IMG/VR virus record: IMGVR_UViG_2778261688_000008
Location: 1 to 6,945 of that record
DNA from: a virus
Taxonomy: Duplodnaviria; Heunggongvirae; Uroviricota; Caudoviricetes
Direction: 5' to 3' (one strand)
DNA length: 6,945 bases
The translations under genes were made by a program, and so were the position numbers. The notes beneath the pieces were generated by a model, which was not told the DNA's origin, searched no databases, and was given only the letters and a program-made list of their open reading frames with translations. Below are positions 765-1,657 of the stretch, in pieces; within the stretch, counting starts at the first letter, position 1; each line of letters starts with the position of its first letter.

Positions 765-1001
765 ATGGCTATCACATCATTTGCAGCAACTGACGTTACA
801 TATGCTGATGGGCAGAAGAACAAAGAACCAATTCCTGATGAAATTCTTGCAAGCGGCTTCGTTCCACCTGTACGCATGCCAGACGGCTCTATCTCAGCGG
901 GGAGCAAACTTGCTGCTAATCATCTCAATACCCTACTTAACGATTTATACACGCAAATATATGACCTTAAGGCTCGCGTGACTGAACTTGAGGGGGCGTA
1001 A
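765..1001 (+). CDS. Small phage protein (78 aa), function unknown, with C-terminal predicted amphipathic/coiled-coil helix
   Basis: ATG at 765 lies 9 nt after the upstream stop, with a weak GTGAGA Shine-Dalgarno-like element at 753-758. Its TAA stop overlaps the next gene's ATG (TAATG, 999-1003). The ORF exactly fills the gap between two structural genes. The C-terminal segment NHLNTLLNDLYTQIYDLKARVTELEG has heptad-like hydrophobic spacing. Confidence 0.5.
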   Translation: MAITSFAATDVTYADGQKNKEPIPDEILASGFVPPVRMPDGSISAGSKLAANHLNTLLNDLYTQIYDLKARVTELEGA

Positions 1002-1657
1002 TGGCTGACATCCTTCTCAAATATCTGACTGATTTACCCTCTGCCGCTGACGCCGAGCCCTCAGACCTGATGCATATCAACCAGGCCGGAAATGACCGCT
1101 CAATAACATTAGAGGTGCTTGCATCCGCAATTTTCAACATCAGATATCCGGTAGGAAAAGTTGAATGGTTCGCTAACGATACTAACCCAAACGCAATTTG
1201 GTCTGGTTCTACGTGGGCCAGAATACCGGGAATGGGAAAAACTATACGCCTTGCAAATAGCACTGGAACTGATGTTTTACAACAGGGCGGTTCAGATACT
1301 GTCGAAATTACATCTTCAAATCTGCCACCACACAAACATCCAATAAATGTAAAAACAGAATCGTTTGATTATGGCTCAAAGTCGACAAGTAGCACAGGGT
1401 CGCATGTCCATGCGTTTGCATACCGAAGAAATGGCAATTCTTCTGATTCTGACCCTGGAGGGGATGTCATGAAGTCTGGTTCCGGCACAAAAAACGAAAG
1501 CAGAAATACTGAGTCGGCAGGAAATCACCAGCACAGTGTAAGCATCGGAGCTCACGAGCATGATATCAAAGGAGACACCGACAGCGTTGGTGGTGGCACT
1601 CCGTTGAGCTTAACTAATGCCTACGTAAAATTAGCGGCTTGGTACAGGACAGCATAA
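1001..1657 (+). CDS. Short tail fibre protein with lambda Stf-like / phage tail-collar-type C-terminal domain carrying His-x-His motifs
   Basis: Strong GAGGGGG Shine-Dalgarno upstream of ATG 1001; an in-frame TGA at 989-991 fixes the start. Motifs LPPHKHP, SFDYGSKSTSSTGSHVHAF and GNHQHSVSIGAHEHD closely resemble, from memory, the SFDYGTKST..GAHAH / GSHSH / GAHQH repeats near the C-terminus of lambda side tail fibre Stf and related fibre tips. The segment YPVGKVEWFANDTNPNAIWSGSTWARIPG resembles the tail-collar domain core. At 218 aa it lacks the long shaft of Stf. Confidence 0.75.
   Translation: MADILLKYLTDLPSAADAEPSDLMHINQAGNDRSITLEVLASAIFNIRYPVGKVEWFANDTNPNAIWSGSTWARIPGMGKTIRLANSTGTDVLQQGGSDTVEITSSNLPPHKHPINVKTESFDYGSKSTSSTGSHVHAFAYRRNGNSSDSDPGGDVMKSGSGTKNESRNTESAGNHQHSVSIGAHEHDIKGDTDSVGGGTPLSLTNAYVKLAAWYRTA

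What the first reader, a model, noticed from the sequence alone, without database searches (positions are those of the whole stretch)
1001..1657. Compact 218-aa tail fibre made of an anchor motif plus a His-x-His tip domain, without a shaft
The protein carries four HxH motifs (HKH, HVH, HQH, HEH) and an SFDYGSKST segment that I recall from the C-terminal tip region of lambda Stf and T4 gp37-type fibres, where HxH repeats coordinate metal ions in the trimeric tip. It lacks the several-hundred-residue shaft of those fibres. A miniaturised fibre consisting only of anchor plus tip is unusual and may act as a short secondary receptor-binding or collar protein.
Basis: partly seen in the sequence, partly recalled or inferred. 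Interest (0 to 1): 0.45.

Follow-up and report, generated by a model that had tools for sequence, protein, structure and literature searches.

The report
Shaftless phage tail fibre with His-x-His tip
This gene encodes a very short tail fibre of a prophage with a contractile tail: a baseplate anchor joined directly to the histidine-rich, probably metal-binding tip known from phage T4 and lambda fibres; it is a real but fairly ordinary member of a widespread family.

Summary
ORF 1001..1657 (+) encodes 218 aa with four HxH motifs (HKH, HVH, HQH, HEH) and SFDYGSKST. Eight of its nine histidines lie in these motifs (shuffle p about 1e-4), and all eight are invariant in 21 relatives.

The protein passes Pfam's cut-off for Gp10_C. 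Its family profile matches the T4 gp37 tip (2XGF, E 2e-6), lambda Stf orf-314 and the C-terminal tips of Felixounavirus tail fibres (158 bits). Its first ~48 residues resemble the baseplate-binding N-terminus of the Felixounavirus short tail fibre (z 8.7) and the N-terminus of the tailspike encoded immediately downstream (z 7.0).

The gene sits in a conserved module (wedge 472 aa, wedge 251 aa, 78 aa, 218 aa, variable large receptor-binding protein) in nine contexts, including two isolated myoviruses. The 472-aa wedge protein's closest solved relative is Bas63 wedge protein 2 (E 3e-39).

Best reading: a trimeric, shaftless mini-fibre whose hypervariable loop between the second and third HxH motifs is the distal, receptor-contacting head. 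It would work alongside an O-antigen tailspike.

"Unusual" is overstated: about 40 clusters of 211-220 aa exist, and 3,568 representatives carry the same tip on fibres of 200-1,000 aa. Trimer geometry, metal binding and receptor binding remain untested.

The parts
1..756 (+). Baseplate wedge protein, 251 aa (wedge-1 position), upstream member of the module
   Evidence: phrog_6277 at 2.7e-91 and weaker 'baseplate protein' PHROGs. It follows the 472-aa wedge gene in intact prophages. Weak N-terminal similarity to wV8 gp80, E 0.035.
765..1001 (+). 78-aa conserved small protein. Tentatively the counterpart of the Felixounavirus fibre-platform protein. Its stop overlaps the target's start (TAATG).
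   Evidence: phrog_24124 at 4.8e-50. Present in 9/9 contexts. 91-96% identical among close relatives. Weak similarity to wV8 gp81: E 0.07, shuffle z 3.8, hhalign P 0.008 but probability 5%.
1001..1657 (+). The finding: 218-aa shaftless tail fibre (anchor + collar + HxH needle with head loop)
1001..1135 (+). Residues 1-45: N-terminal anchor motif MADI.LKYLT.L..A......DL.H.NQ.GND
   Evidence: Residues 1-34 nearly invariant. Similar to the wV8 short-tail-fibre N-terminus 8-48 (E 0.003, profile 0.0068, shuffle z 8.7) and to the tailspike N-terminus (E 0.007, z 7.0).
1136..1330 (+). Residues 46-110: collar domain (YPVGKVEWFANDTNPN...GGSD..I...NLP)
   Evidence: Start of the Pfam Gp10_C match. Aligns to T4 gp10 residues 447-496 (2FKK/5HX2). 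Best-predicted part of the model, pLDDT about 80-86.
1331..1411 (+). Residues 111-137: outgoing needle segment with HxH-1 (HKH), SFDYGSKST and HxH-2 (HVH)
   Evidence: Aligns to the gp37 tip motif SFDYGTKGTNSTGGHTH and to lambda orf-314. Histidines invariant.
1412..1525 (+). Residues 138-175: hypervariable loop between HxH-2 and HxH-3, the inferred distal 'head'
   Evidence: Least conserved segment, typically 18-35% identity, with length variation. Same position as the ~70-residue insertion in the wV8 long-fibre tip and as the receptor-contacting head in the gp37-type tip (PMC12609058). pLDDT below 50.
1526..1561 (+). Residues 176-187: returning needle segment with HxH-3 (HQH) and HxH-4 (HEH), always 9 residues apart
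   Evidence: Aligns to gp37 HSHSVGIGAHTH.
1562..1654 (+). Residues 188-218: C-terminal return strand ending in the conserved ...N.Y.KLAAWYRTA
   Evidence: N206, W214 and R216 invariant. Same terminal motif in T4 gp10 (YITVYRWIRIA) and wV8 fibres (KLMAWVRTA, VYVWQRTA).
1658..4135 (+). 825-aa tailspike, the main receptor-binding protein. Its ATG abuts the target's TAA.
   Evidence: Pfam Tail_spike_N (residues 66-135, 3.5e-26) and a weak Beta_helix hit. PDB hits to tailspike head domains only. Residues 1-48 resemble the target's anchor (z 7.0) and residues 31-110 resemble wV8 short-fibre residues 51-130 (z 10.1). The distal part is exchanged between loci.

Best explanation
The gene encodes a virion protein of a temperate contractile-tailed phage: a homotrimeric, shaftless mini-fibre on the baseplate periphery. 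Residues 1-45 are the baseplate-binding anchor, of the type found at the N-terminus of the Felixounavirus short tail fibre. A paralogous anchor opens the tailspike encoded next door. Residues 46-218 are a T4 gp37 / lambda Stf-type receptor-binding tip. It has a collar, then a short intertwined beta needle in which the chain runs out (HxH-1, SFDYG motif, HxH-2), forms a small variable head (138-175), and returns (HxH-3, HxH-4) to end at the collar (WYR). In the trimer, each HxH layer would place six histidines around the threefold axis and bind one structural metal ion (Fe2+ as in gp37, Zn2+ as in gp12), so up to four ions. The likely sequence of events is that the tailspike binds and cuts O-antigen, which brings the baseplate close to the outer membrane. 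The ~10-15 nm mini-fibre then contacts a second, membrane-proximal receptor such as LPS core through its variable head, contributing to irreversible binding and baseplate triggering. Shown here: the ORF, the motifs and their conservation, homology of tip and anchor, the conserved gene module, and the baseplate type. Inferred: trimer, metal binding, attachment site, receptor binding and the order of events.
For: - **Identity of the tip:** Pfam Gp10_C scores 36.7 bits against a cut-off of 27 and covers the whole model. The target matches the C-terminal ends of long tail-fibre PHROGs. The family profile hits the gp37 tip 2XGF at E 2e-6 and the A-1(L) long tail fibre 8KEC at 0.0037, lambda orf-314, the wV8 long-fibre tip at 158 bits and the wV8 short-fibre tip.
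- **The tip is a distal module:** in 3,568 representatives it is almost always at the extreme C-terminus of proteins of 200-1,000 aa. The cryo-EM paper on Bas63 describes this tip as collar, HxH needle and head, with the chain doubling back (PMC12609058).
- **Histidines:** non-random and invariant.
- **Anchor:** z 8.7 against the short-fibre N-terminus and z 7.0 against the tailspike N-terminus.
- **Baseplate type and gene order:** the wedge 472-aa protein matches Bas63 wedge protein 2 (9NDY_H) at E 3e-39 and wV8 gp79 at 1.5e-39. The order wedge, wedge, small protein, short fibre, long RBP is shared.
- **Host-interaction signature:** the target is 50-65% identical where the adjacent 78-aa protein is 91-96%. 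The H2-H3 loop is the most variable part and varies independently of the tailspike body. A recombination junction lies at codon 32.
- **Functional gene:** the size is kept at 213-218 aa in nine contexts, including the isolated phages Meifeng and phiEt88. The genes are translationally coupled and show no excess of internal promoter or terminator signals.
Against: - Metal binding and receptor binding rest on homology only.
- The same C-terminal domain occurs in T4 gp10 and gp11, which are structural baseplate proteins and not receptor binders.
- The variable loop is short (about 38 residues).
- In Klebsiella Lastavirus gp14 the whole unit, anchor motif included, is internal to an 844-aa protein. 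So residues 1-45 need not be a baseplate anchor in every context.
- Which baseplate site the protein occupies is not resolved, because the target and the tailspike both resemble the short-fibre N-terminus.
Confidence: 0.6

Rival explanations
1. It is a purely structural baseplate pin. Like T4 gp10 or gp11, which end in the same kind of domain, it would stabilise the baseplate periphery or take part in the conformational switch, and it would not bind a receptor.
Against: Similarity to gp10 is limited to the collar and the last residues (E 0.36), while the HxH region matches the gp37 receptor-binding tip (E 2e-6). No sequence match to gp11 was found. The protein diverges much faster than its structural neighbours and is most variable where the gp37-type head lies. 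In thousands of relatives the module is the distal end of fibres.
Confidence: 0.2
2. It is a branching adaptor. The trimer would be fixed to the baseplate and offer a docking surface for the tailspike, as the gp10-like domains of CBA120 TSP4/TSP2 and G7C gp66 do.
For: A 'gp10' Pfam hit lies next to a tailspike that carries the TSP1/Gp66-type head domain. The two genes are tightly coupled.
Against: In those systems and in T4 gp10 the docking modules are the XD2 and XD3 jellyroll domains, not the C-terminal domain (PMC8825819). The only part of T4 gp10 aligned here is 447-496, in the C-terminal domain. The 218 residues are fully accounted for by anchor plus tip. The tailspike has its own anchor-like N-terminus. 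Tailspike N-termini are 75-88% identical where the target's collar and tip are about 50-60% identical, so there is no co-variation.
Confidence: 0.07
3. It is a decaying remnant of a longer fibre gene that lost its shaft by deletion and no longer functions.
For: In E. coli D9 and D4 the locus is a prophage remnant bracketed by IS elements. In other strains the neighbouring tailspike is split by an IS.
Against: The same 213-218-aa size, intact frame, invariant motifs and gene order are kept from Escherichia to Serratia, Hafnia, Erwinia and Rosenbergiella at 46-69% identity, including two isolated, propagating phages.
Confidence: 0.03

Closest known systems
Felixounavirus tail fibres (Bas63 STF gp26 and LTF gp27; wV8 gp82 and gp83; Felix O1-like phages)
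   Same: N-terminal anchor motif like that of the short fibre (z 8.7). Same C-terminal tip. The wV8 long fibre has the identical four-HxH layout and terminal W.RTA motif (158 bits). Homologous wedge protein 2 and the same gene order after the wedge genes.
   Different: Those fibres are 391 and 848 aa, with a stem or rod between anchor and tip, and are 430 and 630 A long (PMC12609058). The target has no stem at all, and its head insertion is about 38 residues against about 70 in the wV8 long fibre. The partner fibre here is an enzymatic tailspike, not a second gp37-like fibre.
T4 gp37 receptor-binding tip (PDB 2XGF) and lambda side tail fibre Stf (orf-314)
   Same: SFDYG[ST]K.T..TG.H.H motif and repeated HxH in a C-terminal tip. 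In gp37 these histidines coordinate seven Fe ions along the trimer axis (PMC12609058, PMC11705849).
   Different: Four HxH instead of seven or eight. The collar matches the Gp10_C model and not Phage_Tail_Collar. There are no several-hundred-residue shafts. No fibre-assembly chaperone gene follows (lambda has tfa directly downstream; here the next gene is the tailspike).
Anabaena myophage A-1(L) long tail fibre gp34 (PDB 8KEC)
   Same: A solved example of a compact fibre: a baseplate-binding 'shoulder' followed directly by a gp37-like 'arm'. The family profile matches its collar and first HxH (E 0.0037).
   Different: 379 aa, with a 155-residue globular shoulder instead of a ~45-residue anchor. 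Cyanophage, and only distantly related in sequence.
T4 baseplate proteins gp10, gp11 and gp12 (C-terminal domains)
   Different: Sequence similarity to gp10 is marginal (E 0.36), and none was detected to gp11. The target lacks gp10's XD1-XD3 domains.

Membership tests
Pfam PF21939 Gp10_C | Whole-protein score at or above the curated gathering cut-off (27 bits) | tested here: met
   36.7 bits, E 1e-8, residues 44-217 on profile positions 1-139 of 139. The precomputed hit is also present in most relatives.
T4 gp37 / lambda Stf-type HxH receptor-binding tip | Repeated, conserved HxH motifs in a C-terminal tip, with sequence similarity to the solved gp37 tip | tested here: met
   Four HxH, all invariant and non-random. 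The family profile hits 2XGF at E 2e-6 and aligns to lambda orf-314.
T4 gp37 / lambda Stf-type HxH receptor-binding tip | Collar-needle-head topology with the chain doubling back to the collar | tested here: inconclusive
   The layout fits: two HxH before and two after a variable loop, and a conserved C-terminal strand as in gp10 and Felixounavirus fibres. The monomer model shows beta hairpins at these segments. However, pTM is 0.37 and the loop has pLDDT below 50.
T4 gp37 / lambda Stf-type HxH receptor-binding tip | Homotrimer with HxH histidines lining the threefold axis and coordinating metal ions | not testable with these tools
Multimer prediction and metal analysis are not available.
Felixounavirus-type baseplate fibres (N-terminal baseplate-binding domain + gp37-like tip) | N-terminal baseplate-binding motif | tested here: met
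   Target 9-48 against wV8 short fibre 8-48 gives E 0.003. Profile positions 14-42 against short fibre 14-42 give E 0.0068. Shuffle z 8.7, 0 of 2000. The E-values are for very small search sets.
Felixounavirus-type baseplate fibres (N-terminal baseplate-binding domain + gp37-like tip) | Encoded after the wedge genes of a homologous baseplate | tested here: met
   The 472-aa wedge protein matches Bas63 wedge protein 2 (9NDY_H) at 3.1e-39. The gene order wedge, wedge, small protein, short fibre, long RBP is shared.
Felixounavirus-type baseplate fibres (N-terminal baseplate-binding domain + gp37-like tip) | Stem or rod between anchor and tip | tested here: not met
   wV8 short-fibre residues ~49-156 have no counterpart. 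The anchor (1-45) abuts the collar (46 onward).
gp10-like branching adaptors (CBA120 TSP4/TSP2, G7C gp66, T4 gp10) | XD2 and XD3 jellyroll docking domains | tested here: not met
   Only the gp10 C-terminal domain (447-496) aligns, and no TSP4 or TSP2 chain was hit. The docking role belongs to XD2 and XD3 (PMC8825819).
   Gp10_C was the only Pfam family reported for the target at E<=1.
T4 gp11-type tail pin | Fold or sequence similarity to gp11 | tested here: inconclusive

The most novel reading that the evidence does not exclude
The mini-fibre and the tailspike carry paralogous anchors. They might therefore occupy equivalent or competing sites on the same simple baseplate. That would make a two-key adsorption device in which a 218-aa shaftless fibre, not the tailspike, senses the membrane-proximal receptor and triggers contraction. 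Its ~38-residue head loop would then be an independent, easily exchanged host-range determinant, and the protein would be the smallest self-contained gp37-type metal-stabilised needle.
Probability: 0.15. Interest if true: 0.45.

Novelty: new member of a known kind. Interest (0 to 1): 0.27.

Why it matters
The value is practical. It gives a well-founded name and domain map to a protein family that databases label only 'phage baseplate protein' or 'hypothetical protein'. It ties a group of temperate Enterobacterales myoviruses (including Hafnia phage Meifeng and Erwinia phage phiEt88) to the solved Felixounavirus baseplate. It also flags a second, independently varying candidate host-range determinant next to the tailspike. 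At 218 residues with four HxH layers, it would be a convenient minimal model for studying folding and metal loading of gp37-type needles, and a compact scaffold for receptor-binding engineering. It does not open a new biological question.

Tried and rejected
- **Linked-trimer prediction.** Three copies were joined by Gly-Ser linkers, with eight relatives as the alignment.
- **'gp10-like adaptor for the tailspike'.** Rejected as the main reading after checking that docking in CBA120, G7C and T4 uses XD2 and XD3, which are absent here.
- **NCBIfam scan.** No hits for any of the four module proteins.
- **Genome-collection scan for more loci.** Only three species-level loci were returned, so the co-variation analysis rests on seven loci.
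- **78-aa protein as Felixounavirus fibre platform.** Only weak support and no PDB hit. I kept it as tentative.
- **Literature searches.** Searching for the Pfam name or accession found nothing relevant. I found no paper on this short family.
- **Pseudogene or remnant reading.** Rejected on conservation.

Full report
**Observation.** The window has an ATG-initiated ORF at 1001..1657 (+) of 218 codons. It contains HKH (111-113), SFDYGSKST (121-129), HVH (135-137), HQH (176-178) and HEH (185-187). The protein has nine histidines, eight of them in these motifs, and only 20 of 200,000 shuffles reach four HxH. The three neighbouring proteins have none. The start is preceded by GAGGGGG. The stop of the upstream 78-codon ORF overlaps the start (TAATG), and the target's TAA abuts the ATG of the next ORF. 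Promoter-like and terminator-like sites in 1-4400 do not exceed shuffle expectation.

**What the protein is.**
- Pfam gives one hit, Gp10_C (PF21939): 36.7 bits against a cut-off of 27, with residues 44-217 covering the whole model.
- PHROGs place the protein on the C-terminal ends of long tail-fibre profiles (positions 955-1150 of 1150 and 558-780 of 780).
- With a 21-sequence family profile, 2XGF scores E 2e-6, the Anabaena phage A-1(L) long tail fibre 8KEC scores 0.0037, and T4 gp10 scores 0.36. The gp10 match covers only the collar (gp10 447-496) and the terminal W.R motif.
- The same profile aligns to lambda Stf orf-314, which carries two SFDYGTK repeats and eight HxH.

So the tip combines a gp10-type collar with a gp37/Stf-type HxH segment.

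**Family and conservation.**
- The homologue search returns 52 clusters. About 40 are 211-220 aa, from Escherichia, Enterobacter, Klebsiella, Hafnia, Obesumbacterium, Serratia and Dryocola, and most named ones are called 'phage baseplate protein'. Longer relatives (270-358 aa) add fibre-repeat domains in front of Gp10_C.
- In the alignment all eight motif histidines, most of residues 1-34, and N206, W214 and R216 are invariant. The stretch between HxH-2 and HxH-3 is hypervariable and varies in length.
- The exhaustive search finds the tip module in 3,568 representatives (411 at E<=1e-10). It is almost always at the extreme C-terminus, in proteins of about 200 to 1,000 aa.
- Short proteins of 197-245 aa carry the same tip behind at least three different N-terminal motifs.
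- Predicted viral structures that match the model are all tail-fibre or baseplate proteins, and many are 199-260 aa.

A shaftless form is therefore the short end of a continuum and not an oddity.

**Genomic setting.**
- The window is 100% identical, over 244-6945, to E. coli D9 and D4. There only the tail-tip genes and gtrCBA survive, between two ISEc52 copies.
- Other contigs with the identical protein hold an intact prophage with this gene order: sheath (E217_gp31_N), tube (PhiTE type), chaperone, tape measure, Dit-like, Pam3_gp18, hub, spike, sheath initiator, a 472-aa wedge protein, the 251-aa protein, the 78-aa protein, the target and the 825-aa tailspike.
- The four-gene end of this module recurs in Klebsiella, Serratia, Enterobacter, Dryocola and Rosenbergiella genomes, in an Enterobacter phage, and in the isolated phages Hafnia Meifeng and Erwinia phiEt88.
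- The last gene varies widely in size (about 480 to 1,413 aa), but always opens with MA[DENQ].K[VL][KR][LI]T.LP.

**Link to a solved baseplate.**
- tblastn against phages finds 419 records, dominated by Felixounavirus 'tail fiber protein' genes.
- In phage wV8 the gene order is wedge 489 aa, baseplate 284 aa, a 100-aa protein, a 391-aa fibre and an 848-aa fibre.
- The Bas63 cryo-EM paper (PMC12609058) names these wedge 2, wedge 1, LTF platform, STF and LTF. [quoted passage not shown] The STF binds wedge 2A domain 2. The LTF binds the platform trimer on wedge 1.
- The 472-aa wedge protein matches Bas63 wedge protein 2 (9NDY_H) at 3.1e-39 and wV8 gp79 at 1.5e-39.
- The target matches the wV8 long-fibre tip (8e-41 by BLAST; 158 bits with the profile), with the same four-HxH layout and a ~70-residue insertion between HxH-2 and HxH-3. 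It also matches the short-fibre tip (1.4e-16).
- Target residues 9-48 match short-fibre residues 8-48 (E 0.003; profile 0.0068; shuffle z 8.7). The tailspike's first 48 residues resemble the target's (z 7.0), and its residues 31-110 match short-fibre residues 51-130 (z 10.1).
- The 78-aa protein resembles the platform protein only weakly (E 0.07, z 3.8, hhalign probability 5%).

These E-values come from tiny search sets, so the bit scores and shuffle statistics carry the weight.

**Function.** I infer a trimeric mini-fibre anchored by residues 1-45 to the wedge periphery. It would have up to four metal-binding HxH layers and a distal head formed by residues 138-175. The evidence for a host-interaction role is comparative.
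- Among close relatives the 78-aa neighbour is 91-96% identical, while the target's collar and tip are about 50-65% identical and its H2-H3 loop 18-35%.
- Loop similarity does not follow tailspike-body similarity (Klebsiella-Rosenbergiella 74% against 12%; E. intestinihominis-Dryocola 65% against 27%).
- DNA similarity to the Enterobacter phages stops at window position 1095, which is codon 32.
- The neighbouring tailspike and the gtrABC O-antigen-modification genes suggest that O-antigen is the primary receptor.

A short fibre would then reach a receptor only after O-antigen cleavage, as T4 gp12 does after the long fibres bind. That last step is an analogy, not a result.

**Rivals.**
- A CBA120/G7C-style branching adaptor is unlikely. 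Docking there uses the XD2 and XD3 jellyrolls (PMC8825819), which are absent here, and the tailspike has its own anchor.
- A decaying remnant is excluded by conservation across genera and by presence in viable phages.

**Caveats.**
- The monomer model is moderate (pLDDT 70, pTM 0.37), and the trimer could not be modelled.
- In Klebsiella Lastavirus gp14 the entire unit, including an internal 'MAGIDLNYLTSL' motif, is fused behind an endoglucanase-annotated N-terminal part in one 844-aa ORF. So the residue 1-45 motif is not always N-terminal.
- Which baseplate site each of the two proteins uses is not resolved.

**Verdict.** This is a real, correctly observed and largely correctly interpreted feature. 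It is a new, uncharacterised member of a known kind (gp37-type HxH fibre tips on Felixounavirus-like simple baseplates), notable only for being shaftless. Interest is modest.

Noticed in passing
window 765-1001 (+); L001 20522-20758: The 78-aa ORF upstream of the target is annotated 'phosphoglycolate phosphatase' in E. coli D9 RefSeq, which looks like a misannotation. It is a conserved phage protein (phrog_24124) present in all nine module contexts. It sits where Felixounaviruses encode the fibre-platform protein, but the homology is only weak.
   Followed up: partly
window 4180-6945 (-): A gtrA (6583-6945), gtrB (5663-6586) and 496-aa gtrC-like (4180-5670) cluster runs convergent with the tailspike. 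The gtrC-like gene has GC 0.30-0.34 against about 0.45-0.50 around it. This suggests lysogenic conversion of the O-antigen, the likely tailspike receptor.
   Followed up: partly
L001 18823-27960 (E. coli D9); L004 and L010 10658-12266: In E. coli D9 and D4 only the tail-tip genes plus gtrCBA remain, bracketed by two frameshifted ISEc52 copies. In two other assemblies an IS (DDE_Tnp_1) splits the tailspike after about 42 codons while the 218-aa gene stays intact.
   Followed up: no
window 1095: Megablast similarity (86%) to Enterobacter phages vB_Ecl_MII_001 and 003 ends at position 1095, codon 32 of the target. This is a mosaic junction just after the conserved anchor.
   Followed up: partly
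L019 2114-4648 (Klebsiella phage LASTA gp14); P0056: An 844-aa 'endoglucanase E1' tail protein ends in a complete copy of the 218-aa unit, including an internal Met-led anchor motif. This suggests an ancestral fusion of an enzyme gene with a mini-fibre gene. The same architecture occurs in SopranoGao, SJM3, ZX1 and Serratia phage Parlo.
   Followed up: partly
L002 10630-10780 (Enterobacter phage vB_Ecl_MII_001): The receptor-binding protein gene after the mini-fibre has a broken start. MAEQK is followed by a stop in one frame, and AKVKLTDLP... continues in another. This is probably a one-base indel or sequencing error, and the deposited annotation starts the gene late.
   Followed up: no
window 1658-4135 (+): Only the head domain of the tailspike (residues about 62-148) has solved relatives by sequence. 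The body (143-699) matches only a PHROG of unknown function plus a weak beta-helix hit, so its enzymatic specificity is unknown.
   Followed up: partly
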